Under the pieces are notes generated by a model. That model was not told the origin of the DNA, made no database searches, and saw only the letters and a program-made list of their open reading frames with translations. Positions 1 through 64,000 of a DNA stretch of 64,000 nucleotides are shown here, piece by piece (positions within the stretch are counted from its first letter, which is position 1; every line of letters begins with the position of its first letter). Position numbers and translations under genes: made by a program. The stretch spans positions 63,426-127,425 of the forward strand of contig CP043983.1 of NCBI GenBank assembly GCA_015134395.1, in the 5' to 3' direction. This stretch comes from Candidatus Stammera capleta. GTDB taxonomy: Bacteria > Pseudomonadota > Gammaproteobacteria > Enterobacterales > Enterobacteriaceae.

Positions 1-1
1 A

Positions 2-1201
2 GATATATGATTTGATTCAGGATCAACATGTTTTTCAATTATGAATCCAAAATTTAAAAAAAAAAAATATATTGATTTATATTTAGAAGGATCTGATCAA
101 TATAGAGGTTGATTTATGTCATCATTAATTATATATACAGCAATTAATAATTGTGCACCATGTAAAATTATATTATCTCATGGATTTATAGTTAATGATA
201 AAGGTAAAAAAATGTCTAAATCTTTAAAAAATAATCTTCATCCTAATAAAATAATAAATAAATTTGGTGCAGATATATTAAGATTATGAGTATCATCAAC
301 TAATTTTACAAATGATATACATATATCAGAAGAAATTATATTAAGAATAACTGAATTATATAGAAAAATAAGAAATACAATAAAATTTTTAGTATCAAAT
401 TTAGATAAATTTAATCCAAACAAAAATATAATAAATAAAAAAAAAATGATTTTAATAGATAAATGAATAATACATAAAACAAAAAAAACACAAGATAAAA
501 TCATTAATTTATATAAAAATTTTAAATTTTATAAAATAATAAAAATTATAATAAATTATTGTGTAATAGATTTAAGCTCATTATATTTAGATATAATAAA
601 AGATAGAAAATATACAATAAAAAAAAATACAATACCATTTTATAGTGCTCAAACAACTATGTGAATGATATTAGAATCTATAATAAAATGAATACTTCCA
701 ATATTATCATTTACAGCAGAAGAAATATGAAAATATTTACCAAGAAAAAAAAATAATAGTATATATGAAGAAAAATGATTTAATAAATTATTTAAATTAC
801 ATAAAAATAATAAAATAAATGAAAATATATGAAAAAAATTAATTATTATAAGAGTAAATTTTAATAAAATTATAGAAAAAATGAAATTAAAAAAAATAAT
901 AAATTCTTCTTTAGAAATAAAAGCAAAAATTTATTTAGAAAAAAATTTTTTTAATATTATAAAAAAAATGAAATTAGAATTAAAATATTTTTTTATAATT
1001 TCTAAAATAACTTTAAAAATAATAAATAAAAAAAAATATAATAATTTTTTTAAAATAAAATGCTCAAAATATAAAGGAATAAAATGTCAAAGATGTTGAC
1101 ATTATACAAAAAAAAATAATAATACAAAAAATTATTCTAATATATGTAATAGATGTATAAAAAATATTTTTGGAAAAGGAGAAAAAAGAAAATTTATATA
1201 A
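2..1201 (+). CDS. ileS: isoleucyl-tRNA synthetase, C-terminal ~400 aa (5' end outside window)
   Basis: Frame 2 read with TGA=Trp is open to TAA 1199-1201. [24 protein letters not shown] and the zinc knuckle CQRC-W-HY...ICNRC...GEKRKFI parallel E. coli IleS (CPRCWHY...ICGRC...GEKRKFA). Confidence 0.95.
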
Positions 1202-1209
1202 TAATTAAA

Positions 1210-2016
1210 TTAATATAAAATAAATAATTTATAAATTAATTTTATAAAAATACTAAAAATAGTATTATGTTCTATATTTAAAGTAACATTTAATCAAATT
1301 AACATAAATACTATAAAAAAATATTTAAATAAATTTTTATTTAAATTTATATAATAAAATTTAAAATTATTTAACATATATCATTTATATGATAAAAATA
1401 TATTTATAAAAACTAAAAATAAAAAAATAAACAAATATAAATTAAATGAATAATTTATAGGTAAATTTAAAGATATAGAATATATTATACCTGGTATAAA
1501 GTATAAAATAGATCACAAAGATATACTTAATAAATTTGGAAAAAATATTTTATATATTGGAATTAATAACATTCCAGATAAAAATAAAATAAAAGATTTT
1601 AAAGGACCAAAAAATTTACCTAATAAAATAAAAAAAAAAGTATTTTCTTTAAAAAAAGAAAAAAAATTTTTTAAATAAAAACTAGAAAAAAATATATTTT
1701 TTTTAAATTCATTTAAATATTTTTTATAATAAATACCTATAAAATAAGAAATAATATCTCCAAAAAAATAACCTATAATATTTAAAAAAAAACAAATATA
1801 AAAATTTAAAATTTTTTTACCTATTAAATAACCAATTATAAACATTATAAAACTACTTGGTATAAGTATTCCAATAAAAACTAAAGCTTCAAAAAAAGAA
1901 ATTAAAAATATAAAAAAATAAAATAAATATATATATTTAATAACATAATATTTTAAAAATAAATCTATATAATAAATATTATTTTTTAAAAAAATTTTTA
2001 AAATTTTTATAAACAT
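1210..2016 (-). CDS. DedA/SNARE-associated family inner-membrane protein with extended C-terminus
   Basis: Polytopic hydrophobic ORF with DedA-like signatures (FFEALVFIGILIPS, GDIISYFIG, GKFFGPLKSF..LSG, ..SLW). Track ORF 1513-2016 continues through TGA at 1513-1515 to TAA at 1210-1212, with about 100 further codons free of TAA/TAG. Confidence 0.6.
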
Positions 2017-2118
2017 TTTATATTATAAATTAATTATTAATTAAATTATATTATAAACTATTACTATTAATATTAATATATTTGTATTAACAATTATTTA
2101 AATAAAATAATAAAATTT

Positions 2119-2871
2119 ATGTATAAAGATTTAGGACAAAATTTTTTAATAAATAAAAAAATTATAAAAAAAATAATAAAATATATAAAACCAAAATCAA
2201 AACAAATATTTTTAGAAATAGGATGTGGGCATGGAGAATTAACAAAAGAAATAATAAAATATACAAATAATATAATAACTACAGAAATTGATTATAATTT
2301 ATATAAAAAAATAAAAAAAAAAATAAAAAAAATTAAAATATTAAACATTAATTTTTTAAATTTTAATTTCAAAAAATATTTTAAAAAAAAAATAAGAATA
2401 TTTGGAAATATACCATATTATATTACATATAAAATATTAATAAAATTAATTAAAAATTTTAATTTAATAAAAGATATACATATAATGTTACAAAAAGAAT
2501 TTGCATATAACTTAATAAAAAAAAAAGGAAATAAAAAATATTCTAAAATTACAGTATTAATAAACATATTTTTTAAAATTAAAATATTAATTCATATAAA
2601 AAAAAAATATTTTTTTCCAAAACCTAAAATAAACTCCATTTTTATAAAACTTAATCCAAATAAAATTAAATATAATTATAAAAATATAAAATATATTATT
2701 CATATTTTAAATAATGCATTTTTTAAAAAAAAAAAAAAAATAATTAATAACTTAAAAAAATTTATATCTATAAAAGAATTAAAAAAAATTAAAATAAACC
2801 CATTATTAAAATCTTATCAAGTATCAAAAAATAATTATTGTAAAATAATTAATTTTTTATTAAAAAAATAA
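2119..2871 (+). CDS. rsmA: 16S rRNA (adenine1518/1519-N6)-dimethyltransferase
   Basis: GQNFL...FLEIGCGHGELT SAM-binding motif, GNIPYYIT, and KsgA-like length (250 aa). Confidence 0.85.
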   Translation: MYKDLGQNFLINKKIIKKIIKYIKPKSKQIFLEIGCGHGELTKEIIKYTNNIITTEIDYNLYKKIKKKIKKIKILNINFLNFNFKKYFKKKIRIFGNIPYYITYKILIKLIKNFNLIKDIHIMLQKEFAYNLIKKKGNKKYSKITVLINIFFKIKILIHIKKKYFFPKPKINSIFIKLNPNKIKYNYKNIKYIIHILNNAFFKKKKKIINNLKKFISIKELKKIKINPLLKSYQVSKNNYCKIINFLLKK

Positions 2872-2873
2872 AA

Positions 2874-3131: not shown

Positions 3132-3150
3132 TTTAATTACCTATATAAAA

Positions 3151-14254: not shown

Positions 14255-14614
14255 TTATTTTCTATTTAAAATTTCTATATATGCCATTAGTGCATTATCA
14301 CCTTTTCTATAACCACATTTTAATATTCTAGTATAACCTCCAAAAATTTTTTTAAATCTAGGACCTAAAACATTTAATAATTTATAAATATTTTTTATAT
14401 TCCTTATTTTAGAAAATAATAAACGTCTAATATGTAAATTATTATTTTTAGAAAAAGTTATTAAAGGTTCTATAAATATTCTTAATTCTTTAGCTTTTGA
14501 TAAAGTAGTTTTAATTATTTCAAAATTTATTAATGAATTAATCATATTCCTAAACATTAATTTTCTATGACTACTATTACGATTTAATTTACGACCACGT
14601 TTTAAATGACGCAT
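14255..14614 (-). CDS. rplQ: 50S ribosomal protein L17
   Basis: [38 protein letters not shown] is near-identical to the E. coli L17 N-terminus. Confidence 0.95.
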
Positions 14615-14628
14615 AATATATCCTTTAA

Positions 14629-15636
14629 TTAATTATTTTTTTTTTTTAAAATAATATTTTTAGGAGGTCAATTATTTAATTTCATTCCTAATTTTAATCC
14701 CTTACTATATAATATATTTTTAATTTCTTCTAAAGATTTTTTACCTAAATTAGGAGTTTTTAATAATTCAGATTCAGTTTTTTGAACTAAATCTCCTATA
14801 TAATTTATAGATTCAGTTTTTAAACAATTAGCTGATCTTACTGTTAATTCTAAATCATCAACAAAGGATAATAAAATAGGATCAATTTTTATTTCTTTAT
14901 CTTTTACCTTGTTAATAGAATATTTATTTAAATCTACAAAAATATTTAATTGATTTATTAATATATAAGTAGCTTTATGAATAGCATATTCAGGTTTTAT
15001 AGTACCATTAGTTTCTACTTCTATAACTAATTTATCTAAATCATTTCTATTTTCAATTATAGAAGATTTAACTCTATAAGAAACACGATTAATAGGTGAA
15101 TATATAGAATCAACTAATAATTTACCTATTAATATATCATTATTTTTCACTAAAATATTTTTTCTAGATAAAGCAGAAACATAACCTTTTCCAAATTCTA
15201 CTTTAACACACATTTTTATAGAAGATTCAGATGAAGTTAAATTACAAATAACATAATTAAGATCAGATATATAAAATTCATTTGAAGAAGTAAAGTCAGA
15301 AGCTAAAACAGGACCAATACCTTTTTTATCTATAAATAATAAAGATTCATTTAATTCTTTATCTAATTTTATAGGTAAATATTTTAAATTCAAAATAATT
15401 TCTATAATATCTTCCATTAATCCTTCTTTAACACTATATTCATGTAATACTCCATCAATTTTTACTTCAGTAACAGCATATCCAGGTATAGAAGATAATA
15501 AAATACGTCTTAATACATTACCTAATGTATATCCAAAACCTTTTTCTAAAGGTTCAATTGTTATTTTAGAACATACTTTAGATATTTTTTTTATATTTAC
15601 TATTTTTGGTTTTAAACATTTTATTTTTGAAAACAT
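14629..15636 (-). CDS. rpoA: DNA-directed RNA polymerase alpha subunit
   Basis: Full-length RpoA homolog. The track ORF stops at TGA 14668-14670, but the sequence ..LGMKLNN-W-PPKNII matches the E. coli C-terminus ..LGMRLENWPPASI. True stop is TAA 14629-14631. Confidence 0.95.
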
Positions 15637-15655
15637 AATTATTAAATCCTATTAT

Positions 15656-16276
15656 TTATTTAGAATAATATTCTAAAACAAGATGTTCACGAATATCAGA
15701 AAAAAAATTTTTTCTATTAGGAAAATATTTTAAAAAACCTTTCATATTTTTAATATCTACTTCTAACCATATAGGTAATTCACGTTGTTTAAATAATTCT
15801 AATGAATATTTAATACGATCTTGATTTTTAGCTTTTTTTACTATTTCAATCACATCATTAATTTTAACTAAAAAAGAAGGTATATTTACAATTTTATTAT
15901 TAACCATAATAAGTTTATGATTTACTAATTGACGTGATTCATAACGAGTACACCCAAATCCCATTCTATAAACAATATTATCTAATCTTCTTTCTAAAAA
16001 AATTAATAAAATTTCTCCAGTATTACCTTTTAAACGAATAGATTTTTTATAATAATTTAAAAATTGTTTTTCTAAAATACCATATATACGACGAATTTTT
16101 TGTTTTTCTCTTAATTGTAAACCATAATCAGAAATTCTACTTTTTCTATAAATATGTTGACCAGGTAAACGATCTATTTTACATTTAGATTCTATACTAC
16201 GTATACCAGATTTTAAAAATAAATCAGTACCTTCACGACGACTTAATTTTAATTTTGCACCTAAATATTTTGCCAT
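15656..16276 (-). CDS. rpsD: 30S ribosomal protein S4
   Basis: [24 protein letters not shown].. is typical of S4. 206 aa, in the alpha operon. Confidence 0.95.
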
Positions 16277-16299
16277 TTTAATAATCCAAATAAATTTAA

Positions 16300-16689
16300 T
16301 TAAACACGTCTTTTTTTAGGAGGACGACAACCATTATGAGGAATAGGAGTAATATCATTAATATTAGTTATATTAAATCCAGCATTATGTAATGCCCTAA
16401 TACTAGATTCACGTCCAGGTCCAGGTCCATTAATCATAACTTTTAAATTTTTCATACCATATATTTTTATAATATTAGAACATTTTTCAGTAGCTATCTG
16501 AGCAGCAAATGGAGTAGATTTTCTAGAACCTCTAAATCCAGATCCTCCAGCAGTTGCTCAACCTAAAACATTACCATTTAAATCTGTAATACTTATAATA
16601 GTATTATTAAAAGAAGCATATATATATGCTATACCATTAATAATTTTTTTTCTTATTTTTTTTTTATTTTTTTTTAAAAAATTAGACAT
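16300..16689 (-). CDS. rpsK: 30S ribosomal protein S11
   Basis: Hand translation gives ..[53 protein letters not shown]. Contains one TGA=Trp. Confidence 0.93.
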
Positions 16690-16698
16690 AAATTTCCA

Positions 16699-17058
16699 TT
16701 AATTATTTTTTTTAAATTTATTTATTTTTTTACATGTTTTAGCATTTGTTTTTGTACGTTGACCTCTAACTGGTAAATTTTTACGATGACGAATACCACG
16801 ATAAGTATTTAAATCCATTAATCTTTTAATATTTAACATATTTTCTCTTCTTAAATCTCCTTCTAAAATATAATTAGATATATTTTTTCTAATTAATTCT
16901 ATTTGTTTATTATCTAAATCTTTTACTTTTGTAAAATAATTAATTTTATTTAAATCACATATTAATTTAGCACGAGATTTACCAATACCATAAATAGAAG
17001 TTAAAGCAAATAAAATAAATTTATTATTAATAATATTTACTCCTAATATTCTAATCAC
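16699..17058 (-). CDS. rpsM: 30S ribosomal protein S13
   Basis: MIRILGVNI..ALTSIYGIGKSRA matches S13. GTG start is preceded by AAGAGGA. Confidence 0.93.
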   Translation of the reverse strand: MIRILGVNIINNKFILFALTSIYGIGKSRAKLICDLNKINYFTKVKDLDNKQIELIRKNISNYILEGDLRRENMLNIKRLMDLNTYRGIRHRKNLPVRGQRTKTNAKTCKKINKFKKNN

Positions 17059-17082
17059 TATATCCTCTTTATAATATAATTA

Positions 17083-17199
17083 TTAACCTTGACGTTGTTT
17101 ATGTTTAGGATTATTTTTACAAATAACTCTTAATATACCATAACGTTTTACTATTTTACAAAAAAAACAAAATTTTTTTATGGAAGCTCTTACTTTCAT
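17083..17199 (-). CDS. rpmJ: 50S ribosomal protein L36
   Basis: 38-aa [41 protein letters not shown] lying between secY and rpsM. Confidence 0.9.
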
Positions 17200-17216
17200 A
17201 TATATATATATATAAT

Positions 17217-18524
17217 TTAATTATTTTTTTTTAATATAGAAAAATATTTATTAGACATCATTAATACTTGTATTTGAGAAATTAAATCCATAATAACTAT
17301 TATTACAATTAATAAAGAAGTACCTCCAAAATAAAATTGTATATTAAATATATAACGCATAAAATCAGGTATTAAACATATAATTGACATATATAAAGAA
17401 CTAAATAAAGTTAATCTTAATATAATCTTTTTTAAAAAAAAAGATGTATTTAATCCAGGTCTTATACCAGGAATATAAGCACCAGATTTTTTTAAATTAT
17501 CTGAAATATCATTAGGATTATACATTAATAATGTATAAAAAAAAGAAAAAAATATTATTAAAAATAAATATAACATTAAATAAAAAAAATTTTTATAATA
17601 AATTATTTTAATAATATTATTTAAAAAAAATAAATTAAAATAATTATTTAATCAAATAATAAAAATAGATGGAATTAATATAATACTTGAAGAAAAAATT
17701 GCAGGAATTACTCCAGACATATTTACTTTAAAAGGTAAAAAAGTATTATATGAATAAAAAGAATATTTTCCTATATATCTTCTAGAAGCATAATAAACAA
17801 GTATTTTTCTTTGAGACATTTCAATAAAAACTATAAAAAATATAATAAAAAAAATAAAAATTAAAATAATAAATAATTTAATATACGAAATATTATTTAT
17901 ATTATTAAATATAATTAATAAAGAATTAAATAAATTAGAAATTATACCTATAAAAATAATTAAAGATATACCATTACCTAAACCTTTTTCAGAAATTTGT
18001 TCTCCTAATCACATTAAAAACATAGTACCAGTAATTAAACTAAATATAGAAATTATATAAAAATTAAATTTATTAAATAATAATATATATTTAAAATCAT
18101 AAAATTTAACAAGAGTCATAGATATAAATATAGATTGTATAATAGATAAAAATAATGTTAAATATTTTGTATACTGATTAATTTTATATTTACCTATTAT
18201 TCCTTCTTTTTTTAAATTAATAAAATAAGAAAAAGTAACTGTTAATAATTGTATAATAATGGAAGAAGATATATACGGTATAATACCTAAAGCTAAAATA
18301 GAAGCATGTATTAAAGAACCTCCTGAAAATAAATTAAACATATTCATAAAATTATTATTATTATAATTTAAAAAGTTATTTAAATTATTAAAATTTATTC
18401 CAGGAATAGGTATAAAAGTTCCAATACGGAAAATTATAATTATAAAAAATAAAAAAATAAATCTATCCTTTAATTCTTGTAAACTACTAATAATATTATT
18501 TAATGAAATATTATTTATATTCAT
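17217..18524 (-). CDS. secY: preprotein translocase subunit SecY
   Basis: Two track fragments share one frame joined through TGA codons. 435 aa polytopic protein at the spc operon position. Confidence 0.92.
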
Positions 18525-18551
18525 ATAATTACCTTAAATTAAATATATTTA

Positions 18552-18983
18552 TTATTTTAATAATTTTATAATTTTAAATACACCAGAAGACATTTTAATA
18601 TTTTTATCAATAATATTAATTTTTTTTTTAATAAAATTACCATCTAATATTAATTTTACAATTTTAGTTTTTACATTAATTAAACGTTTTTTTTTTAATA
18701 AAAACATATTTATGTTAGATCCTTCACTAAATATATTTAAAGAACTTAAACATAATTCTTTAACATAAATATTTTTATTACTCTTAAAACCAAATTTAGG
18801 TATTCTACGATAAAATGGTGTTTGTCCACCTTCAAAATATTTATTAATTTTATAACCAGATCTAGATTTTTGTCCTTTATGACCTCTACCACTAGTTTTT
18901 CCTAATCCTGATCCTATACCTCTTCCTAAACGTTTATTTTTTTTAGATTTAATAATAGGATATAACTTATTTAAAGATAGCAT
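18552..18983 (-). CDS. rplO: 50S ribosomal protein L15
   Basis: ..[26 protein letters not shown].. is the L15 signature. 143 aa. Confidence 0.95.
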
Positions 18984-19016
18984 AATTTAAATACCTTATA
19001 ATATTTATATTTAAAC

Positions 19017-19514
19017 TTATAAAATTTCTTTTAAAAATTTACCTCTTTTATTAGCAATATATATAGGAGATTGCATTTTAGATAAAATTTTTATAGTTGC
19101 TTTTACAACATTTATAGGATTAGTAGATCCATAAATTTTTGATAAAATATTTTTTATTCCAGAAACTTCAAAAATAGCTCTCATAGATTTTCCAGCTATT
19201 ATACCAGTACCTTCACAAGCTGGTTTAATAAATATAATAGTATTAGCATATTTCCCTTTAATAGGATATCTTAAAGTACCTTTTTTATTTAATAAAATAT
19301 TTATCATATTTTTACGAGATTTATTTAAAGATTTTTGTATTGCTATAGGAACTTCACGAGCTTTACCATAACCATATCCAACTTTACCTTTACCATCACC
19401 AACAACAGTAAGAGCAGAAAAAGAAAATATTCTTCCACCTTTTACAGTTTTAGATATTCTATTTACAAATATTAATTTTTCTATATAATCATTATTATTA
19501 TTTAATTTTTTCAT
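19017..19514 (-). CDS. rpsE: 30S ribosomal protein S5
   Basis: ..[40 protein letters not shown].. is the S5 signature. Confidence 0.95.
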
Positions 19515-19531
19515 ATAAAATTTTTATATAA

Positions 19532-19891
19532 TTAAAATATCAATCCATATTTTCTAGCATTATTAGCTAATTTTTTAATACGTCCATGATATTTAAAACC
19601 AGAACGATCAAAAACTACATTATAAATACCTTTATTTATAGATCTTTTTGCTATTACTTTACCAATAATAGAAGCAGAAATTATATTACCAGTATTATTA
19701 TTATTAATAATTTTTTTTTCTAAAGTAGATGCAAATACTAAAACATTAGAATTTTTTCCTTCTTGTTTAATTATTTGAGCATAAATATGACAAGAAGTTT
19801 TATAAATTACTAAACGTATTTTATTAAATTTTTTTCAAATAAAACGTATTTTCCTACACCTACGCAAACGATTTTTTTTTTTATTTAACAT
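19532..19891 (-). CDS. rplR: 50S ribosomal protein L18
   Basis: Hand translation gives ..[16 protein letters not shown]...[26 protein letters not shown], with one TGA=Trp. Lies between rpsE and rplF. Confidence 0.88.
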
Positions 19892-19894
19892 AAT

Positions 19895-20437
19895 TTATTT
19901 AATTTTCTTTTTATGTTCTTTAATTTTTATAATTTCATTAAAATATCTTATACCTTTTCCTTGTTTATAACATTCTGGAGGACGATTATATCTTATTTCA
20001 GAAGCAACTTTACCTACTAATTGCTTATCATAACCTTCTATTAAAATTTCATTATTATTAAAACATTTTATTTTAATTCCTGAAGGGATAATATAATTAA
20101 TTATATAAGAAAAACCCAAATTTAAAAATAAAATATTATTTTTAATATAACATTTATATCCAATACCAACTAATAATAATTTTTTAGTAAAACCATATAT
20201 AAATCCAATTATAGTATTATTTATAATAGAACGAATAGTACCTGCATACATTCATGCATTATTATATTTTTTATTAATATTAAAATAAATTTTATTATTT
20301 TTATATAAAATAATAACTGCATCATGTATACGATATATAACTTTAATATTATTATTAATTAAATAAATATTTTTTCTTTTTATAATTATTTTAATATTTT
20401 TAGGAACTATAATAGGTTTTTTTGCAATACGAGACAT
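19895..20437 (-). CDS. rplF: 50S ribosomal protein L6
   Basis: Track ORFs 19895-20251 and 20252-20437 are contiguous, joined by TGA at 20252-20254. MSRIAKKPI.. N-terminus. TAGGAG Shine-Dalgarno upstream. Confidence 0.93.
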
Positions 20438-20449
20438 ATAATTAAACTC

Positions 20450-20848
20450 CTAAAAAATATAACAAATTATTTCTCCACCAATATTTAATAAACGAGCTTG
20501 TTTATCAGATAAAATCCCTTTAGAAGTAGAAATAATAACTAAACCAAAACCTGACATTATTATAGGTAATTTCTTACAAGATTTATATACACGTAAACCA
20601 GGACTACTAATTCTTTTAATTTTAGTTATGACAGGTTTATTATTATAATATTTTAAATAAATTAAAATTTTTTTTTTATAATTATTATAATTTATAATTT
20701 TAAAATTTTTTATAAATCCTTCACTATAAAATATATTTAATATAGATAATTTAAACTTAGAATAACATATTTTTACTATATTTTTTTTAACTAATTGTGA
20801 ATTTCTAATACATGTAAACATATCTCCTATAGGATCTTGCATACTCAT
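20450..20848 (-). CDS. rpsH: 30S ribosomal protein S8
   Basis: MSMQDPIGDMFTCIRN matches E. coli MSMQDPIADMLTRIRN. ATG at 20846-20848 is preferred over the TTG start of the track. Stop is TAG (20450-20452), the only TAG stop I saw. Confidence 0.93.
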   Translation of the reverse strand: MSMQDPIGDMFTCIRNSQLVKKNIVKICYSKFKLSILNIFYSEGFIKNFKIINYNNYKKKILIYLKYYNNKPVITKIKRISSPGLRVYKSCKKLPIIMSGFGLVIISTSKGILSDKQARLLNIGGEIICYIF

Positions 20849-20874
20849 AATTATCACCAAAAATAAATTTTAAA

Positions 20875-21180
20875 TTATCAACTTGATTTTTTTAAACCAG
20901 GAATATAACCCTTAACAGCAAATTCACGAAATTTAATTCTACTTAATCCAAATTTACGTAAATAACCATGAGATCTACCTGTTTGAATACATCTATTACG
21001 ATGTCTAACAATACTAGAATTTCTAGATAAAGACTGTAATTTTATTATAGCTTTTCATCTATCTTTACTATTAATATTAATATTAGAAATAATTTTTTTT
21101 AATTTAATTCTTTTATTATAAAATTTTTTTATTAATATTTTTCTTTTATTTTCACGTTCTATAATAGATTTTTTTGTCAT
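20875..21180 (-). CDS. rpsN: 30S ribosomal protein S14
   Basis: 101 aa. Ends ..[12 protein letters not shown] with the terminal Trp encoded by TGA (20878-20880) followed directly by TAA, as in E. coli ..GLKKASW. Confidence 0.92.
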
Positions 21181-21184
21181 AATA

Positions 21185-21724
21185 TTAATTTATTAATGGA
21201 AATTTAAATTGTTTAAATAATTCAATTGATTCATTTATATTATTTTTTATTATTATAAAAGATATATTAAGTCCATGTAAATAAGTTAATTTTTCATAAT
21301 CAATTTCTGGAAAAATAGTATTTTCTTTAATTCCTATATTTAAATTTCCATATTTATCAAAACATTTTTTTGAAAAACCTCTAAAATCTCTAATTCTAGG
21401 AATAACTATAAAAATTAATTTATCTAAAAAATTCCACATATTTTTTTTTCTTAAAGTAACTTTACAACCAATAGGAAAATTTTTACGAATTTTAAAATTA
21501 GATATAGATTTTTTTGATCTAGTTACTATAGGTTTTTGTCCAGTAATTAATTTTATATTTAATAATACATTATTTATTTTATTTTTTTCTAAAAATTTAT
21601 AATTTAAACCAACATTAATTACTATTTTAACTAATCTTGGAACTTGCATTATAGATGTATAATTAAATTTTTTAATTAATTTTTTACATATATTTTTTTT
21701 ATATAATTTTAATAATTTACTCAT
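21185..21724 (-). CDS. rplE: 50S ribosomal protein L5
   Basis: 179 aa at the spc operon position. ..MQVPRLVKIVINVG..,..RDFRG.. motifs. Confidence 0.93.
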   Translation of the reverse strand: MSKLLKLYKKNICKKLIKKFNYTSIMQVPRLVKIVINVGLNYKFLEKNKINNVLLNIKLITGQKPIVTRSKKSISNFKIRKNFPIGCKVTLRKKNMWNFLDKLIFIVIPRIRDFRGFSKKCFDKYGNLNIGIKENTIFPEIDYEKLTYLHGLNISFIIIKNNINESIELFKQFKFPLIN

Positions 21725-21728
21725 AATA

Positions 21729-22058
21729 TTATTTATAATTTAATATAGAATTATTATATTTTAAATAACGAACTTTTTTATTATTTACATATTTAAAACC
21801 AACTCTAGATAACTTTTTTTTATTTAAAATAAAACAAAAATGACTAATATTAGATATATCTATTCATTTTTCTTTTTTTAAAATACCTCCAATAATATTA
21901 TTACTAGGAATAGATTTTTGATGTTTAAAAACTAAATTAATTCCTTTAATAATAACTTTATTACGATTTTTTGATATATTTTTAATTATACCTTCTTTTC
22001 CTTTATCTTTACCACTAATAATAATAACTTTATCATTTACATTAAATTTATAAGTCAT
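21729..22058 (-). CDS. rplX: 50S ribosomal protein L24
   Basis: ..NDKVIIISGKDKGKEGIIK.. KOW motif. Track ORF continues through TGA 21864-21866 to TAA 21729-21731. Confidence 0.9.
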
Positions 22059-22075
22059 AAAATTCCAAATAAATA

Positions 22076-22444
22076 TTAAATTACTTCAGAAGCAAGAGAG
22101 ATAATTTTCATAAATTTATCACATCTTAATTCTCTAGAAATAGGACCAAAAATTCTAGTACCTAAAGGTTGTTCATTATCATTTAATATAACACAAGAAT
22201 TATTATCAAATCTTATAACAGAACTATCTAACCTTTTAATACCATATTTAGTACGTACAATTACTGCTTTTAACACATCACCTTTTTTTATTTTACTTTT
22301 AATTAATATTTCTTTAACAACAACTTTAATAATATCACTAATATTTGCATATCTACGCTTACTACCACCTAAAATCCTTATACACATAACAATTTTTGCT
22401 CCAGAATTATCAGCAACTGATAATAAAGATCTTTCTTGAATCAT
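22076..22444 (-). CDS. rplN: 50S ribosomal protein L14
   Basis: [26 protein letters not shown].. is highly conserved L14. Confidence 0.96.
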
Positions 22445-22459
22445 ATATTATTCCTATAT

Positions 22460-22714
22460 TTATTTATAAATTAATTTATTAAAAATTCAAGATTTTTTTT
22501 TTGAAATAGGTCTACATTCTTTTATTTCTATAAAATTACCAATTCTACATTTATTAAATTCATCATGAACATATATTTTAGAATTTTTTTTTATAAATTT
22601 ATTATAAATTTTATGTTTTATAAATCTAAAAATATTTACAATTATAGTTTTATTCATACTATTACTAATAACATAACCTTTAATTTTTTTTATTTTTTTT
22701 ATTTTTTTTTTCAT
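22460..22714 (-). CDS. rpsQ: 30S ribosomal protein S17
   Basis: ..[28 protein letters not shown] matches E. coli ..ECRPLSKTKSW with Trp=TGA (22487-22489). TAA at 22460-22462. Confidence 0.92.
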
Positions 22715-22901
22715 ATTTTTTTAATCAAATAAATGTTTTAACTTTAGCTATATTTTTTTTAATTTTATTTATTAAATGAGTTTTTTTAAAATCATTAGAT
22801 AATAATTGCATACGAATATTAAAACTTTCTCTTAATAATATAAATAAAATATTTTTTAATTCTTTAATATTTTTATTTTTTAAAAATTTACAGTTAATCA
22901 T
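22680..22901 (-). CDS. rpmC: 50S ribosomal protein L29 (3' end depends on reading TGA 22725-22727 as Trp)
   Basis: [32 protein letters not shown]... parallels E. coli L29 (..ELNTELLNLLREQFNLRMQ). The first TAA in frame is 22680-22682, 35 nt inside rpsQ. Confidence 0.8.
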
Positions 22902-23311
22902 AATATTTTTTTTTTTATAACAAATATAGTTTTTATAGATAATTTATCACTAGCTAATTTAAAAGCTTTTTTTGCTAAAGATTCACTAACACCATCTAAT
23001 TCATATAAAATTTTTCCTGGTTTTATAACAGCAACTCAATATTCTACATTACCTTTACCTTTACCCATACGAATTTCTAAAGGTTTTTTAGTAATTGGTT
23101 TATCAGGAAAAATTCTAATTCACATAGAACCTTGTTTTTTTATAGTACGAGTAATTACTCTACGAGCAGATTCTATTTGTTTTGAAGATATACTACCTCT
23201 AGTAATAGCTTTTAAAGCAAACTTTCCAAAAATAATTTTAATATCATTTGATAAACCTTTATTTCTACCTTTTTGCATTTTTCTATATTTAGTTTTTTTT
23301 GGTTGAAGCAT
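22880..23311 (-). CDS. rplP: 50S ribosomal protein L16
   Basis: [19 protein letters not shown].. N-terminus, with internal TGA codons. Reads through an ATGA junction with rpmC to TAA 22880-22882. Confidence 0.92.
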
Positions 23312-24035
23312 TATTTTTTCCTATAAAAGATTTTTTATGAATTCTTTTAAAATATTTTTTTATATTAAAAAAATTAGTACCATATTGTTTAATAGGATAA
23401 AATTTATCTAATATTTCACCTTTAAATACTCAAACTTTAACACCAATAACACCATAATTAGTTAAAGCTTTTTTAAAACTATAATCTATATCAGCTCTTA
23501 AAGTATGTAAAGGAACTCTTCCTTCCCTATATCATTCTCTTCTAGCTATTTCAGTTCCTCCTAATCTACCACTTACTTCTATTTTAATTCCTTTTATTCC
23601 TAATCTTAAAGCATTATTTATAACTCTTTTCATAACCCTTCTAAACATCATTCTTCTTTCTAATTGAGAAACAATATTATCAGCTATTAATTTAGAATCT
23701 AATTCAGGTCTACGAATTTCAGAAATATTAATTTGACAAGGTATACATGTAATTTTATTAATTTCATTTTTTAATTTTTCTATATCTTCTCCTTTTTTAC
23801 CAATTATTATTCCAGGACGAGCGGTATAAATAGTAATTTTAATACTTTTTTTTGCAAATCTTTCAATTAATATCTTAGATACTAAAGCTTTATATAATTT
23901 TTTATTTAAAAATTTCCTTATTTTATAATCATTATATAAATTAATAGCAAAATCTTTTTTATTAGAAAATCAAAAAGAATTTCACATTTTTGTTATACCT
24001 AAACGAATAATATTAGGATTAACTTTTTGACCCAT
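23289..24035 (-). CDS. rpsC: 30S ribosomal protein S3
   Basis: [14 protein letters not shown].. and ..[30 protein letters not shown].. match S3. The 3' end overlaps the rplP start by 23 nt. Confidence 0.92.
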
Positions 24036-24051
24036 ATAATATTTACCTTTA

Positions 24052-24384
24052 TTATTTATCAGAAACTATTATTGTAATATGACTACTTCTTTTTAATATA
24101 TAATTAACTCTACCTTTAGCTCTTGGATTTATACGTTTTAAAAAAGAAGCATTATCTATATATATTTTAGATATTTTTAAAATATCTTTATTAATACCAA
24201 AATTATGTAAAGCATTTGAAATAGCAGATTTCAAAACTTTTTTAATTAAAAATGCAGATTTTTTATTAATAAAAGACAAAATATTATATGCTATAATAAC
24301 ATTTTTACCTCTAATTAAATTAGCAATTAATCTAAGTTTTTGAGTAGATGATCTAATATATTTTCCTCTAGAAAGAATATTCAT
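24052..24384 (-). CDS. rplV: 50S ribosomal protein L22
   Basis: 110 aa. ..RSSTQKLRLIANLIRGK.. is the L22 signature. S10 operon order. Confidence 0.93.
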   Translation of the reverse strand: MNILSRGKYIRSSTQKLRLIANLIRGKNVIIAYNILSFINKKSAFLIKKVLKSAISNALHNFGINKDILKISKIYIDNASFLKRINPRAKGRVNYILKRSSHITIIVSDK

Positions 24385-24399
24385 ATAAACCTTTATAAA

Positions 24400-24681
24400 T
24401 TAATCTTTTATATTTTTTTTTTCATTAGATAAATGCCCTCTAAAAGTTCTAGTCGGAGAAAATTCACCTAATTTATGTCCAACCATATCTTCTGTAATAT
24501 ATACAGGAATATGAATTTTACCATTATATACAGATATAGTTAAACCAATCATATTAGGTAAAATAGTAGAACGACGAGATCAAGTTTTTATAGGAGATTT
24601 ATCATTACTATTAATAGCTTTTTCAACTTTTTTAAATAAATGAAAATCAATAAATGGACCTTTTTTAAAAGAACGAGACAT
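24400..24681 (-). CDS. rpsS: 30S ribosomal protein S19
   Basis: [12 protein letters not shown]...[50 protein letters not shown]. Trp is TGA. Confidence 0.94.
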
Positions 24682-24699
24682 AATTTTAAACCTTTAATA

Positions 24700-25524
<825 letters not shown>

Positions 25525-25527
25525 AAT

Positions 25528-25833
25528 TTATTTTAATAAGTTATTCAATTTTAAATTTTGTCCTTTTTTTAATATTATATAAACTTTTTTTCAAGTTTTT
25601 CTATAACCTATATTATTTTTATTAATTTTTTTTTTTCCTTTAATTAATAAAGTTCTAATTTTTTTAATTTTTATATTTAAAAATTTATTTATAATATTAT
25701 AAATTTCTAATTTATTTATATTTCTACTAACTTTAAAAACTAAAGTATTATATTTTTTATATAAAATAGAAGATTTTTCAGAAAAATAAAGTCTTTTAAT
25801 AAAATTAACACAATTATAAATTCCATTATTCAT
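25528..25833 (-). CDS. rplW: 50S ribosomal protein L23
   Basis: ..GYRKT-W-KKVYIILKKGQNL parallels E. coli ..GRRSDWKKAYVTLKEGQNL. TAA at 25528-25530. Confidence 0.9.
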
Positions 25834-25834
25834 A

Positions 25835-26443
25835 TTATTTTAACCTATTTTCAATAATTTTAATAACATTTAAAGTACAAATTATATTTTTAAATTTTAT
25901 TAAATTAATAATATTTATATTATTAACATTACATATGTTAACATTATATAAATTACGAGAAGCTAAAAATAAATTTTTATTAAATTTTTCTGTAATAATT
26001 AACATTTTTTTAAATAAATAAATATCTTTAAATTTATTTATAAATAATTTTGTCTTTGGTAAAGATAAATTAATATCATTAAAAACATGTAATCTAAATT
26101 CTTTAATAAGTTCTGATAAAATCATTTTTAAAGAATTAATATACATTTTTTTATTAATTTTAGAATAATATTTTTTAGGTTTAGAAGCAAAAGTCACACC
26201 ACCTGAACGTCATATAGGACTTTTAAAAGATCCAGCTCTAGCTCTACCTGTCCCTTTTTGTCTTCAAGGCTTTCTATTAGATCCTTTAACATCACTTCTA
26301 GATTTTTGAGAAACATTACCTTTTCTTTTATTATATTGACAAGATTTAATTACTTGATGTACTAAAGACATATTTAAAGAAATATTAAAAACATTATCAG
26401 ATAATATTATTTTATTATTAGTATCTTTTAAAAATATATACAT
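25835..26443 (-). CDS. rplD: 50S ribosomal protein L4
   Basis: ..[33 protein letters not shown].. matches E. coli L4, with both Trp encoded by TGA. Confidence 0.94.
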
Positions 26444-26459
26444 AAAAATCTCTAATAAA

Positions 26460-27068
26460 TTATTTAATTGAAGATTTAATTATTAAATTACTATTATTAA
26501 AACCTGATACAGATCCTTTAATTAATAAAATATTTTTTTTTTCATATATTTCTATAATTTTTAAACATTTAATAGTAACTTTATTATTACCTAAATGACC
26601 TGACATTTTTTTTCCTTTTAAAACTCTTCCAGGACTTTGATTTTGACCTATAGAACCAGGAGCTCTATGAGAAAGAGAATTACCATGAGTTTTATTTTGA
26701 GAACTAAAATTTCATCTTTTTATAGTACCAGAAAATCCTTTTCCTTTAGAAATACCTGTTATATCAACTTTATTAATATTTTTTAATAATTTAACATTAA
26801 GTTCTTGACCAATATTATAATGTATTTCTTTTATATAAGGTATTTCTAATAATCCAATTCCTGGTTTTATATTTATTTTTTTATAAAAACCTAATTTACA
26901 CTTATTATTTTTTTTTTTTAATCCAAAAGAAATTTGTACTTTATTTATATCTTTTTTTATACAAGTAATAATATTTCTATTAATAAAAATTATACTAACA
27001 GGAATAGAAATACCATTTTTAGTAAATATTCTTGTCATACCTATCTTTTTACCAATTAATACAATCAT
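26460..27068 (-). CDS. rplC: 50S ribosomal protein L3
   Basis: [16 protein letters not shown]..,..[35 protein letters not shown]. Confidence 0.94.
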
Positions 27069-27073
27069 ATTTA

Positions 27074-28593: not shown

Positions 28594-28617
28594 AATTTAT
28601 ACCTTTTATTTTATTTA

Positions 28618-30759: not shown

Positions 30760-30762
30760 AAT

Positions 30763-31233: not shown

Positions 31234-31256
31234 ATAATAACTCCAAAATAAAACTA

Positions 31257-38615: not shown

Positions 38616-38629
38616 AAATTATTTAATTT

Positions 38630-38703
38630 CGGTACGAACGGGACTCGAACCCGTGACCTCCAGCGTGACAGGCTGATATTCTAACCAACTGAACTACCGT
38701 ACC
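38630..38703 (-). tRNA. aspT: tRNA-Asp (GUC)
   Basis: The reverse complement GGTACGGTAGTTCAGTTGGTTAGAATATCAGCCTGTCACGCTGGAGGTCACGGGTTCGAGTCCCGTTCGTACCG parallels E. coli tRNA-Asp. Lies 10 nt downstream of 5S. Confidence 0.95.
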
Positions 38704-38713
38704 ATAAATATAA

Positions 38714-38833
38714 TTTCTGGCAGCGTCTTACTCTCGCATAAGAAAATTCTTACACTACCATCAGCGCTATGACATTTCACTTCTGAGTTCGGAATGGATT
38801 CAGGTGGTACTATCATGCTATTACCGCCAGAAA
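38714..38833 (-). rRNA. rrf: 5S ribosomal RNA
   Basis: The reverse complement aligns with E. coli 5S (..CTGGCGG..CCGAACTCAGAAGTGAAA..GATGGTAGTGT..ATGCGAGAGTA..CTGCCAG). Ends are accurate to a few nt. Confidence 0.93.
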
Positions 38834-38841
38834 ATATAAAA

Positions 38842-38856
38842 CATTTTTAGGTTATG

Positions 38857-38864
<8 letters not shown>
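38842..38864 (-). promoter_or_regulatory. 3' arm of 23S processing stem (pairs with 41765-41787)
   Basis: CATTTTTAGGTTATGAAGTTAAG on the + strand at 38842-38864 is the exact reverse complement of 41765-41787, giving a 23/23 match. Confidence 0.8.
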
Positions 38865-41764
<2,900 letters not shown>

Positions 41765-41771
<7 letters not shown>

Positions 41772-41787
41772 TCATAACCTAAAAATG
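41765..41787 (-). promoter_or_regulatory. 5' arm of 23S processing stem (pairs with 38842-38864)
   Basis: CTTAACTTCATAACCTAAAAATG is a perfect 23-nt inverted repeat bracketing the 23S gene. Confidence 0.8.
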
Positions 41788-41814
41788 TCTTATAAAACGA
41801 TTTTTAAAGAATAA

Positions 41815-41886
41815 TGTCCTCTAAGGGATTCGAACCCATATTATCGCCGTGAAAGAGCGATGTCCTAACCCTTAGACGAAGAAGAC
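41815..41886 (-). tRNA. gltU: tRNA-Glu (UUC), 16S-23S spacer tRNA
   Basis: The reverse complement GTCTTCTTCGTCTAAGGGTTAGGACATCGCTCTTTCACGGCGATAATATGGGTTCGAATCCCTTAGAGGACA parallels E. coli tRNA-Glu. No CCA. Confidence 0.95.
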
Positions 41887-41955
41887 TAATATGTATTTAT
41901 TTATTTATATATAATATATATATATATATGACACTTGTATATAATCAAAATTTAA

Positions 41956-43508
<1,553 letters not shown>

Positions 43509-43705
43509 ACAAAACAACAAAAATTCTCAAATAAAAACATTTAAGAATCAAATAATTCTCTTATTAAGATTATTTTACAAGTGCATATATATTATATCTT
43601 TAAAAGAACAAAAACACGTAAAACTTATTAAAATATAGTTTAACAAAAAAAAAAAAATAAAACAAGTATAATATAATAATTTTATATTAATATATATTAA
43701 TATAT

Positions 43706-53071: not shown

Positions 53072-53092
53072 ATTTATATTAAACCGAGATGG

Positions 53093-54360: not shown

Positions 54361-54378
54361 ATAATTATTAATAAATAT

Positions 54379-56545: not shown

Positions 56546-56574
56546 AATAATTAAATATAATTAAAAGGATAAAA

Positions 56575-62583: not shown

Positions 62584-62630
62584 AATAATTTTCCTTGTAT
62601 TTAAAATTAAATTTAAATTAATATAAATAA

Positions 62631-62888
62631 TTAATAACGTAAATTTAAATCTTTTATAATATTATTATATTTATTTAAATCATTTAATTTAATATATTTC
62701 AATATTTTACGACGTTTAAAAATTAATTTTAATAAACCAATTTTACTATGAAAATCTTTTTTAAAATAAGATAAATGTTTCTGTAATTTATTTATACGTA
62801 AACTTAATAATATAACTTGAATTTCACTAGAACCACAATTATTTATATCTTTTTTATAATTATTAATAATTTTTTTATAATTAATCAT
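62631..62888 (-). CDS. rpsO: 30S ribosomal protein S15
   Basis: ..GSSEIQVILLS.RINKLQ.H....KKD.HS..GLL....RRK.L.Y.. is the S15 signature. Upstream of pnp. Confidence 0.92.
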   Translation of the reverse strand: MINYKKIINNYKKDINNCGSSEIQVILLSLRINKLQKHLSYFKKDFHSKIGLLKLIFKRRKILKYIKLNDLNKYNNIIKDLNLRY

Positions 62889-62927
62889 ATATTACTATAA
62901 TATTAAATTTTTAATTTAAATTTAAAT

Positions 62928-62952
62928 ATTAAAGTCCTTAATGGACTTTAAT
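62928..62952 (-). terminator. stem-loop downstream of groEL (candidate intrinsic terminator or RNA-stabilising hairpin)
   Basis: ATTAAAGTCC-TTAAT-GGACTTTAAT is a perfect 10-bp stem whose G/C bases stand out in an otherwise A/T-only spacer. No clean U-tract. Confidence 0.5.
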
Positions 62953-63000
62953 ATTTTAATAACATTAAATAATGAAATAAATAAATATTAAATAAATTTA

Positions 63001-64000
63001 TTACATCATACCCCCCATTCCTCCCATACCACCACCACCATTAATGTTAGGATTTGGATTATTTATTTCAGATTTTTCATTTTTAGGTAAATCAGTAATC
63101 ATACATTCTGTAGTAACCATTAAACCAGCAACTGAAGCTGCATATTGTAAAGCAGAACGAGTAACTTTAGTAGGATCTAAAATACCCATATTTATCATAT
63201 CACCATATTTTTCTGTAGCAGCATTATATCCATAATTACCATTACCAGCTTTTACATTATTAGCAACTACAGAAGGTTCATCACCAGTATTAGAAACTAT
63301 TTGACGTAAAGGTGATTCCATAGCTTTTAAAGCTACTCTTATACCAACATTTTGATCTTCATTTTGAGCAGTTAAATTATTTAATCTTGCTGCTACTCTA
63401 ACTAAAGCTACACCACCTCCAGCAACCACACCTTCTTCTACAGCTGCTCTAGTAGCATGTAAAGCATCTTCTACTCTTGCTTTTTTTTCTTTCATTTCAA
63501 CTTCTGTTGCTGCTCCAACTTTTAATACAGCAACACCACCAGCTAATTTTGCTACTCTTTCTTGTAATTTTTCTTTATCATAATCAGAAGTAGCTTCATC
63601 TATTTGTTGACGTATTTGACTAATACGATTAGATATTTCTTTTTGACAACCAGATCCATCTATAATAGTAGTAGTATCTTTATTAATAATTACTTTTTTA
63701 GCATTACCTAAATCATTCATATTAACTTTTTCTAATTCCATTCCAATTTCTTCAGAAACAACATTGCCATTAGTTAAAATAGCAATATCTTGTAACATAG
63801 ATTTACGTCTATCACCAAAACCTGGAGATTTAACAGCAGCTACTTTAACAATACCTCTCATATTATTTACTACTAAAGTAGCTAAAGCTTCACCTTCAAC
63901 ATCTTCTGCGATTACTAATAAAGGTTTGTTTGATTTAGCTACAGATTCTAATATAGGTAACATTTCACGAATATTAGATATTTTTTTTTCTACTAATAAA
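63001..64000 (-). CDS. groEL: chaperonin GroEL, C-terminal ~333 aa (5' end outside window)
   Basis: ..[57 protein letters not shown].. and the GGM-repeat tail [12 protein letters not shown]. Confidence 0.97.

What the first reader, a model, noticed from the sequence alone, without database searches (positions are those of the whole stretch)
1..64000. UGA is a sense (Trp) codon throughout; stops are TAA with a single TAG
In-frame TGA sits exactly where E. coli orthologs have conserved Trp.
- ileS: CQRC-TGA-HY (1097-1099) vs CPRCWHY.
- rpoA: NN-TGA-PP (14668-14670) vs ENWPP.
- rplD: KP-W-RQKG and PI-W-RSGG.
- rplW: T-W-KK.
- rpsQ: KKS-W.
- fmt: LPK-W-KG.
- orn: [11 protein letters not shown].
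- smpB: G-W-EVKS.
- gpmA: ESL-W-N and TG-W-TD.
- rlmE: PGG-W-S.
- ftsH: LF-W-L.
- pgi: KS-W-NNL.

rpsN (20878-20880) and rpsG (30766-30768) end in TGA-TAA, reproducing the conserved C-terminal Trp of S14 and S7.

Under the standard code more than 30 essential genes, including most ribosomal proteins, would be truncated. TGG is still used, for example in tuf.

Every stop I determined is TAA except rpsH, which uses TAG at 20450-20452 inside the rplF TAGGAG Shine-Dalgarno.

The synteny and the tRNA-Glu rRNA spacer indicate an Enterobacterales-type gammaproteobacterium. The well-known UGA=Trp symbionts I can recall (Hodgkinia, Zinderia, Nasuia) are alpha- or betaproteobacteria. A gammaproteobacterial case therefore deserves lineage identification.
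Basis: partly seen in the sequence, partly recalled or inferred. Interest (0 to 1): 0.8.

Follow-up and report, generated by a model that had tools for sequence, protein, structure and literature searches.

The report
UGA-as-tryptophan code in Stammera symbiont

Summary
With TGA read as sense, the window holds 73 protein genes. Forty of them carry in-frame TGA, with 114 TGA against 5 TGG. Seventy-two end in TAA and one, rpsH, ends in TAG. I aligned 55 genes to E. coli K-12. Of 84 aligned TGA codons, 81 sit opposite an E. coli Trp (chance P about 1e-161). No other codon deviates from the standard code.

The lineage is not new. The 16S gene matches the published pan-Stammera FISH probe exactly and is 91-94.5% identical to the two relatives' 16S genes I fetched. 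PNPase, Orn and L16 are 100% identical to proteins on a 281,294-bp NCBI contig. About 40 relatives lie on single contigs of 212-326 kb. One contig length equals a published Stammera genome size exactly. Candidatus Stammera capleta (Enterobacteriaceae, tortoise-beetle symbiont) has been annotated with table 4 since Salem et al. 2017.

The literature reports a CCA anticodon on its tRNA-Trp, not UCA. It also reports that prfB is lost in most strains but kept in five basal code-11 strains. Neither gene lies in this window.

Verdict: real, correctly interpreted, already known.

The parts
1..64000 (.). Chromosome segment of a Candidatus Stammera capleta strain, read with translation table 4. It holds 73 CDS, one rRNA operon, 8 tRNAs and tmRNA.
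2..1201 (+). 3' part of ileS with 10 in-frame TGA codons. Nine lie opposite E. coli Trp, including 1097-1099 (CQRC-W-HY). The stop is TAA.
14255..27385 (-). The alpha, spc and S10 ribosomal-protein operons in E. coli order. The rpoA TGA is at 14668-14670 and the rpsN terminal TGA at 20878-20880. rpmD is missing.
20450..20452 (-). The only TAG stop in the window. It ends rpsH and lies inside the TAGGAG Shine-Dalgarno sequence of rplF, whose ATG is at 20437.
22898..22900 (-). TGA at codon 138 of rplP, overlapping the rpmC ATG as ATGA. It marks a former stop position. Relative L019 has TAA here, giving an L16 of 137 aa. Relative L020 has TGT (Cys). Read as Trp, it extends L16 by 6 aa (WLTVNF).
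22725..22727 (-). TGA at codon 59 of rpmC, near the C-terminus. Read as Trp, it gives a 15-aa tail (the Trp included) that overlaps the rpsQ start.
27409..31625 (-). str operon: rpsL, rpsG, fusA, tuf. rpsG ends TGA-TAA (30766-30768, opposite the terminal Trp of S7). fusA has 4 TGA, all opposite Trp. tuf keeps a single TGG.
35662..36612 (-). miaA, the tRNA i6A37 dimethylallyltransferase, retained and itself carrying 3 TGA codons at Trp positions. I infer it is a possible helper for UGA reading by tRNA-Trp.
   Evidence: for the gene; its role is inference from E. coli genetics recalled from memory
38629..43510 (-). Single rRNA operon: 16S (41956-43510), tRNA-Glu (41815-41886), 23S (38856-41771), 5S (38715-38831), tRNA-Asp (38629-38704). 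No tRNA-Trp follows tRNA-Asp, unlike E. coli rrnC.
42910..42935 (+). Exact match to the pan-Stammera 16S FISH probe SCA600. The probe is complementary to the rRNA, which is encoded on the minus strand.

Best explanation
The window is part of the roughly 281-kb chromosome of a strain of Candidatus Stammera capleta. This is the genome-reduced, extracellular, pectin-degrading Enterobacteriaceae symbiont of tortoise and hispine leaf beetles (Cassidinae). The strain uses NCBI translation table 4. UGA is decoded as tryptophan and supplies about 96% of Trp codons. Termination uses only UAA, and rarely UAG.

Likely mechanism:
- Extreme AT mutational pressure drives TGG to TGA.
- Release factor 2 has been lost, so nothing competes for UGA.
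- The single tRNA-Trp, which in Stammera keeps the CCA anticodon, reads UGA by a C-A mismatch at the wobble position. A37 isopentenylation by MiaA may help.
- RF1 handles UAA and UAG.
- Former stop positions that mutate to TGA simply lengthen the protein to the next in-frame TAA, as seen in L16.

Shown here: UGA sits at conserved Trp positions; no gene in the window needs UGA as a stop; no other codon is changed; the organism belongs to the Stammera clade; the relatives sampled do the same.

Taken from the literature and not tested for this strain: loss of prfB and the CCA anticodon.

Inferred: the near-cognate decoding step and the role of MiaA.
For: Codon evidence:
- 81 of 84 aligned TGA codons lie opposite E. 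coli Trp in 55 genes, P about 1e-161, and no other codon deviates.
- 114 TGA against 5 TGG. Stops are 72 TAA and 1 TAG, with no TGA stop needed.
- Nine further proteins match NCBIfam models full-length with W at TGA.

Identity evidence:
- The window's code-4 Orn (3 TGA) and L16 (3 TGA) are 100% identical over their full length to proteins on a 281,294-bp NCBI contig. The gene models held in that collection for this genome therefore also read TGA as Trp.
- The pan-Stammera probe SCA600 matches the 16S exactly. E. coli differs at 4 positions of the probe target.
- 16S identity is 94.5% to GCA_036689335.1 and 91.3% to GCA_036689545.1, against 84.9% to E. coli.
- These assemblies belong to the same accession series as GCA_036689315.1, which the gTranslate preprint names as Ca. 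S. capleta.
- About 40 NCBI relatives lie on single contigs of 212-326 kb. This fits the 49 Stammera genomes of 0.22-0.34 Mb and 13.9-20.4% GC.
- One contig of 268,407 bp equals the size given for the plasmid-free Stammera of Terpsis quadrimaculata.
- The relatives' loci are syntenic with the window and also place TGA at Trp positions: 18, 24 and 20 such codons.

Relic stop: at L16 codon 138 the window has TGA, one relative has TGT (Cys) and another has TAA. The tail is therefore translated in at least the TGT relative.

Literature: Stammera is a known code-4 lineage with prfB absent and trnW CCA.
Against: - prfB and tRNA-Trp are outside the window and outside every relative locus I could fetch. 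The loss of RF2 and the anticodon are not verified for this strain.
- No assembly record or paper names this exact sequence. The species assignment rests on the probe match, similarity, accession series and genome sizes.
- No protein or RNA data were available.
- The TGA codons at rplP codon 138 and rpmC codon 59 would also give sensible protein lengths if read as stops.
- The 16S decoding centre (530 loop, helix 34 including C1054, helix 44) is identical to E. coli. It offers no ribosomal explanation for efficient UGA reading by a CCA anticodon.
Confidence: 0.95

Rival explanations
1. The reassignment is incomplete or ambiguous. RF2 is still present, and UGA is partly read through by tRNA-Trp and partly terminates, as proposed for the Providencia siddallii symbiont of Haementeria acuecueyetzin.
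For: - Some Stammera assemblies that use code 4 are reported to contain prfB.
- Two TGA codons lie near the C-termini of rplP and rpmC, where a stop would give E. coli-like protein lengths.
- prfB status could not be checked for this strain.
Against: - 96% of Trp codons are TGA and 55% of genes contain TGA, including most ribosomal proteins, EF-G, SecY and FtsH. Partial termination would be crippling.
- None of the 73 genes needs TGA as its stop.
- At the rplP site a relative has TGT (Cys) with the same tail and the same TAA stop, so the tail is translated there.
- P. siddallii PSAC has only 20% of genes with UGA and keeps about nine UGA stops.
Confidence: 0.03
2. This is an undescribed gammaproteobacterial symbiont lineage, separate from Stammera, that changed UGA to Trp independently.
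For: - The scan of GTDB species representatives found no close relative.
- No named database record was recovered.
- The Chelymorpha alternans-specific Stammera probe SAL227 does not match.
Against: - Stammera is reported to be absent from GTDB because its genomes fail the quality criteria. That explains the empty result.
- The pan-Stammera probe matches exactly.
- 16S is 91-94.5% identical to two fetched genomes of the accession series named as Stammera.
- Gene order is collinear with the relatives.
- Contig sizes match the published Stammera table.
- SAL227 was designed for a single host's strain.
Confidence: 0.03
3. UGA is a genuine stop and the genes are pseudogenes of a decaying genome. 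Alternatively, UGA is corrected to UGG in the mRNA, or it encodes another residue such as Gly, Cys or Sec.
For: None specific. Under table 11 the ORFs are fragmented: 45.9 kb lies in ORFs of at least 100 codons, against 68.7 kb under table 4.
Against: - The reading frame continues without shifts after every TGA, and downstream sequence stays conserved.
- TGA pairs with Trp in 81 of 84 cases. Gly, Cys and Sec are not seen.
- Truncation would hit 40 of 73 genes, most of them essential.
- To my knowledge, U-to-G or A-to-G codon correction of this kind is not known in bacteria.
Confidence: 0.01

Closest known systems
Candidatus Stammera capleta, translation table 4 (Salem et al. 2017; 50 genomes in Garcia-Lozano et al. 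2024)
   Same: - Enterobacteriaceae symbiont with a 0.22-0.34 Mb genome and 14-20% GC.
- UGA read as Trp in more than half of the genes: 62% reported for the species, 55% in this window.
- The 16S probe target and gene order also agree.
   Different: Nothing essential. This strain has lost mutS, mutL, truB and tsaE at sites where some relatives keep them. It also carries tRNA-Leu(AAG) where a relative has GAG. The host species was not determined.
Hodgkinia cicadicola and Nasuia deltocephalinicola
   Same: UGA read as Trp in tiny insect-symbiont genomes, with prfB lost.
   Different: They are alpha- and betaproteobacteria, and their tRNA-Trp anticodon has changed to UCA. Stammera keeps CCA.
Zinderia insecticola and Fastidiosibacteraceae XS4
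   Same: UGA read as Trp with tRNA-Trp(CCA) retained.
   Different: Their tRNA-Trp has a 4-bp anticodon stem, proposed to enable UGA reading. Stammera is reported to have the ordinary 5-bp stem. XS4 keeps RF2.
Providencia siddallii symbiont of Haementeria acuecueyetzin
   Same: An Enterobacterales symbiont with UGA at Trp positions and tRNA-Trp(CCA).
   Different: It is at an intermediate stage. Only 20% of genes carry UGA, a UGA-interrupted prfB is present, and about nine genes still appear to stop at UGA. In this window no UGA stop is needed.
Mycoplasmatales and Entomoplasmatales (the original table 4 users)
   Same: UGA read as Trp, low GC, RF2 absent.
   Different: They belong to Bacillota. 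Nearly all have a tRNA-Trp(UCA), usually alongside CCA.

Membership tests
Translation table 4 (UGA = Trp) | In-frame UGA at conserved tryptophan positions of orthologs | tested here: met
   81 of 84 aligned TGA codons lie opposite E. coli Trp in 55 genes, P 7e-162.
Translation table 4 (UGA = Trp) | UGA not needed as a terminator; genes end in UAA or UAG | tested here: met
   72 TAA and 1 TAG among 73 CDS. The two near-terminal TGA codons in rplP and rpmC are ambiguous. At the rplP site a relative has a Cys codon with the same tail.
Translation table 4 (UGA = Trp) | No other codon reassigned | tested here: met
   A codon-by-codon tally against aligned E. coli residues shows only TGA deviating. 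The other flagged codons have fewer than 20 observations each.
Translation table 4 (UGA = Trp) | Release factor 2 (prfB) absent or inactive | not testable with these tools
   prfB is not in the window, and the rest of the genome could not be fetched. The literature reports it absent in most Stammera and present in five basal code-11 strains.
Translation table 4 (UGA = Trp) | A tRNA able to read UGA as Trp (UCA anticodon or an altered CCA tRNA) | not testable with these tools
   There is no tRNA-Trp in the window or in the fetched relative loci. The literature reports CCA with a 5-bp anticodon stem and never UCA in Stammera.
Candidatus Stammera capleta | 16S rRNA carrying the Stammera signature and clustering with Stammera genomes | tested here: met
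   The SCA600 probe matches exactly at 42910-42935. 16S identity to GCA_036689335.1 and GCA_036689545.1 is 94.5% and 91.3%. No full phylogeny was built.
Candidatus Stammera capleta | Single chromosome of 0.2-0.34 Mb, 14-20% GC, highly syntenic among strains | tested here: met
   The source contig is 281,294 bp. Window GC is 18% including the rRNA operon. Gene order is collinear with L006, L015 and L016.
Candidatus Stammera capleta | Pectinolytic enzymes (polygalacturonase, rhamnogalacturonan lyase) and a cassidine beetle host | not testable with these tools
   No such genes lie in this 64-kb window.

The most novel reading that the evidence does not exclude
In this strain about 96% of Trp codons are UGA. 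If its only tRNA-Trp has a CCA anticodon with a normal 5-bp anticodon stem, as reported for every Stammera genome, then efficient UGA decoding relies on a feature not yet described. It would be neither a UCA anticodon nor a shortened anticodon stem, and the 16S decoding centre is unchanged (I found it identical to E. coli). Candidates are a Hirsh-type change in the tRNA body, an unusual C34 or A37 modification, or simply near-cognate reading made sufficient by the absence of RF2.
Probability: 0.35. Interest if true: 0.45.

Novelty: already known. Interest (0 to 1): 0.12.

Why it matters
It matters mainly for annotation. Table 11 would truncate 40 of the 73 genes here, so table 4 must be used.

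Biologically the window is a clean example of a known case. Stammera is one of the few gammaproteobacteria with UGA read as Trp, and it does this without a UCA anticodon. A 2026 preprint reports that basal Stammera strains still use code 11 and keep prfB. The clade is therefore a good natural series for studying how a stop codon is captured.

The L16 site found here adds a small concrete example. The same position holds TAA, TGA or TGT in different strains. This shows how stops that mutate to TGA extend proteins once RF2 is gone.

None of this changes what is already published about the code itself.

Tried and rejected
- GTDB genome scan with RpoA: only distant MAGs at 37-46% identity. Published reports that Stammera is excluded from GTDB explain this.
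- Exact-protein look-ups for EF-Tu and PNPase: not on record, so the rest of the source genome could not be read.
- Cluster look-up: no names or accessions.
- Paper searches for CP144785, GCA_036689295, SRR27267667 and SRR10017626: no hits.
- Search for contig lengths in the Stammera supplement: no hits, because the published sizes include plasmids. The one plasmid-free genome (268,407 bp) matched afterwards.
- Strain-specific probe SAL227 for the Chelymorpha alternans symbiont: no match. The window is therefore not that strain.
- Probe Tor971: judged uninformative, because from memory it targets a universally conserved 16S stretch. Not searched.
- Hunt for tRNA-Trp:
  - ARAGORN and Rfam on the window found none.
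  - ARAGORN on relatives around the rRNA operon and the replication origin found none.
  - blastn with E. coli trpT found no trace, not even in the 420-nt spacer after tRNA-Asp in L016.
- The first tally on the relatives showed TGA opposite Cys and stop. Inspection showed these came from antisense shadow ORFs, not real genes.
- Dual stop/sense use of TGA at rplP: considered and judged unlikely, because a relative has TGT at that codon with the same tail.
- Host assignment from chromosome size (Ischnocodia annulus or Physonota sp. would fit 281 kb plus one plasmid): too weak to claim.
Full report
1. THE OBSERVATION

The window is extremely AT-rich: 12-24% GC outside the rRNA operon, and 18% overall. 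Read with the standard bacterial code it is fragmented. With TGA as sense, ORFs tile it (45.9 kb against 68.7 kb in ORFs of at least 100 codons).

A non-overlapping code-4 gene set, plus rpmJ and a corrected def start, gives 73 CDS covering 84% of the window. Forty of them contain in-frame TGA. There are 114 TGA against 5 TGG. Stops are 72 TAA and one TAG.

I fetched E. coli K-12 loci covering the orthologs and aligned the code-4 translations with tblastn. Fifty-five genes aligned over 12,253 columns. Of 84 aligned TGA codons, 81 face an E. coli Trp. Trp is 0.89% of the aligned E. coli residues, so the binomial probability is 7e-162. All 5 aligned TGG codons also face Trp.

This includes the terminal TGA-TAA of rpsN and rpsG. 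It also includes the rpsH TAG at 20450-20452 inside TAGGAG, upstream of the rplF ATG.

A codon-by-codon tally shows no other reassignment. Nine proteins without a fetched E. coli counterpart match NCBIfam models end to end when TGA is read as W: MrdA, RodA, DacA, MnmA, alanine racemase, RlmB, HflX, TldD and RsmA.

2. WHAT ORGANISM IT IS

The order of the ribosomal operons and the rRNA operon (16S, tRNA-Glu, 23S, 5S, tRNA-Asp) follow E. coli rrnC. A scan of GTDB species representatives found nothing close. Two papers state that Stammera and similar tiny genomes fail GTDB quality control and are absent from it, which explains the empty result.

Protein searches were informative:
- PNPase, Orn and L16 from the window are each 100% identical, over their full length, to proteins on a 281,294-bp NCBI contig.
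- Orn and L16 contain three TGA-encoded Trp each. The gene models held in that collection for this genome therefore also read TGA as Trp.
- About 40 further NCBI proteins, at 58-72% PNPase identity, lie on single contigs of 212-326 kb. Only after these come Buchnera and other Enterobacteriaceae symbionts at 51-55%.
- Relatives resolve to assemblies GCA_036689295.1, GCA_036689335.1, GCA_036689545.1 and GCA_015140255.1.
- The gTranslate preprint names GCA_036689315.1, from the same accession series, as Candidatus Stammera capleta.

The published Stammera data fit:
- 49-50 genomes of 0.22-0.34 Mb and 13.9-20.4% GC.
- The pan-Stammera 16S FISH probe SCA600 matches the window's 16S with no mismatch. 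E. coli differs at four positions of the target.
- The 16S is 94.5% and 91.3% identical to the two relatives I fetched, and 84.9% to E. coli.
- A Logan contig from run SRR10017626 is 100% identical to window 22683-25004.

I conclude, with confidence of about 0.95, that the window comes from a Stammera capleta strain. The strain is not the Chelymorpha alternans one, because probe SAL227 does not match. The host species remains undetermined.

3. RELATIVES

The three relative loci fetched at that stage (L006, L015, L016) are collinear with the window. In their real genes TGA also sits at E. coli Trp positions: 18, 24 and 20 codons. Apparent exceptions came from antisense shadow ORFs.

4. MECHANISM

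Shown here:
- UGA is a Trp codon and supplies 96% of Trp codons.
- No gene in the window needs UGA as a stop.
- Only UAA and UAG terminate.

Not in the window are tRNA-Trp and prfB. tRNA-Trp does not follow tRNA-Asp as it does in E. coli rrnC. No remnant is detectable, even in a relative with a 420-nt spacer at that site.

For the species, the literature reports:
- prfB is absent and trnW has a CCA anticodon (PMC10540940 Table 2).
- The anticodon stem is the normal 5-bp form, unlike Zinderia and XS4 (PMC13092985).
- No Stammera genome has a UCA tRNA, while five basal genomes keep prfB and use code 11 (gTranslate preprint).

The most likely mechanism has three elements. AT pressure converts TGG to TGA. 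RF2 is lost, which removes competition at UGA. tRNA-Trp(CCA) then reads UGA as a near-cognate codon.

miaA is retained in the window (35662-36612). From my own knowledge of E. coli genetics, its i6A37 product is needed for efficient UGA suppression by tRNA-Trp. This link is inference.

The 16S decoding centre (530 loop, helix 34 with C1054, helix 44) is identical to E. coli. I therefore see no ribosomal adaptation at the classical sites.

5. A SMALL EXTRA FINDING

rplP has a TGA at codon 138, overlapping the rpmC start as ATGA. rpmC has a TGA at codon 59. Read as stops, both would give E. coli-like protein lengths.

Across Stammera L16 proteins, the residue at codon 138 is Trp or Cys where L16 carries a tail, and shorter versions end just before this position or a few residues earlier. 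At the DNA level, codon 138 is TGA in the window, TGT in L020 and TAA in L019, where L16 is 137 aa. This is a stop position that has become sense in code-4 lineages, lengthening L16 by six residues. The Cys variant shows the tail is translated, which argues against a dual stop/sense meaning. The rpmC site remains ambiguous.

6. COMPARISON AND VERDICT

This is a member of a known case, not a new one. Stammera is listed as a table-4 user in Codetta's reference table, in Manzano-Marin et al. 2023, and in the 2025-2026 papers on Actinomycetota and gTranslate. Other gammaproteobacterial cases are also published: Providencia siddallii PSAC and Fastidiosibacteraceae XS4.

Its prediction of a UCA anticodon is probably wrong for this lineage.

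Novelty: already known. Interest: low (0.12). The one open point is how a CCA tRNA-Trp with a normal stem decodes nearly all Trp codons as UGA. The literature already flags this question, and it cannot be addressed from this window.

Noticed in passing
window 53083-53163 (+): The tRNA-Leu next to secG has anticodon AAG. The syntenic tRNA has GAG in relative L006 and in E. coli (leuU). A34 is unusual in bacterial tRNAs other than tRNA-Arg(ACG). In the window's CDS the CUN codon counts are CTT 53, CTC 0, CTA 18 and CTG 0, so the change fits the extreme AT bias. How CUA is read is unknown.
   Followed up: partly
window 22880-22900 (-), with L019 and L020: L16 carries a 6-aa tail (WLTVNF) that begins at a TGA overlapping the rpmC start codon as ATGA. 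The same codon is TAA in one Stammera relative and TGT in another. It is a stop position that became sense, extending the protein.
   Followed up: yes
window 22680-22727 (-): rpmC has a TGA at codon 59. Read as Trp, it gives a Lys/Asn-rich 15-aa tail (the Trp included) that overlaps the rpsQ start by 35 nt. Read as a stop, L29 would be 58 aa against 63 in E. coli. The two readings could not be told apart.
   Followed up: partly
window 44724-45092, 36613-36853, 56546-56574; relatives L015, L016, L006: This strain lacks mutS, mutL and truB at the sites where relatives carry them. It also lacks tsaE, which relative L016 carries between orn and amiB. Only short AT-rich spacers remain, with no detectable remnants. 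Both mismatch-repair genes that belong in this region are therefore gone.
   Followed up: partly
window 18984-19016: rpmD (ribosomal protein L30) is absent. rpsE and rplO are separated by only 33 nt, and tblastn with E. coli L30 finds nothing. rpmJ (L36) is present at 17083-17199.
   Followed up: yes
window 54361-56170 (+): IF2 is short: 480 aa from the first ATG, against 562 aa in relative L006 and 890 aa in E. coli. The 367-nt region upstream holds a Lys/Asn-rich 67-aa ORF in another frame. This may be a decayed or frameshifted N-terminal domain.
   Followed up: partly
window 38043-38071 (-): The last 9 sense codons and the stop codon of the orn ORF overlap the 5' part of tRNA-Gly(GCC) by 29 nt. 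The orn-tRNA-Gly synteny is as in E. coli (orn-glyVXY).
   Followed up: no
window 38616-38628 and rRNA operon 38629-43510 (-): The single rRNA operon has the E. coli rrnC layout, but trpT is missing after tRNA-Asp. orn starts 13 nt further on. The same holds in two relatives. The 16S decoding-centre sequences are identical to E. coli.
   Followed up: yes
window 1210-2016 (-): A 268-aa, very hydrophobic ORF with 3 in-frame TGA has no NCBIfam match. It lies where E. coli has lspA after ileS, but on the opposite strand. Its identity is unknown.
   Followed up: no
window 47379-47852: A 474-nt gap between tldD and mreB contains no ORF of at least 25 codons and no RNA-family match. This is long for such a compact genome.
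   Followed up: no
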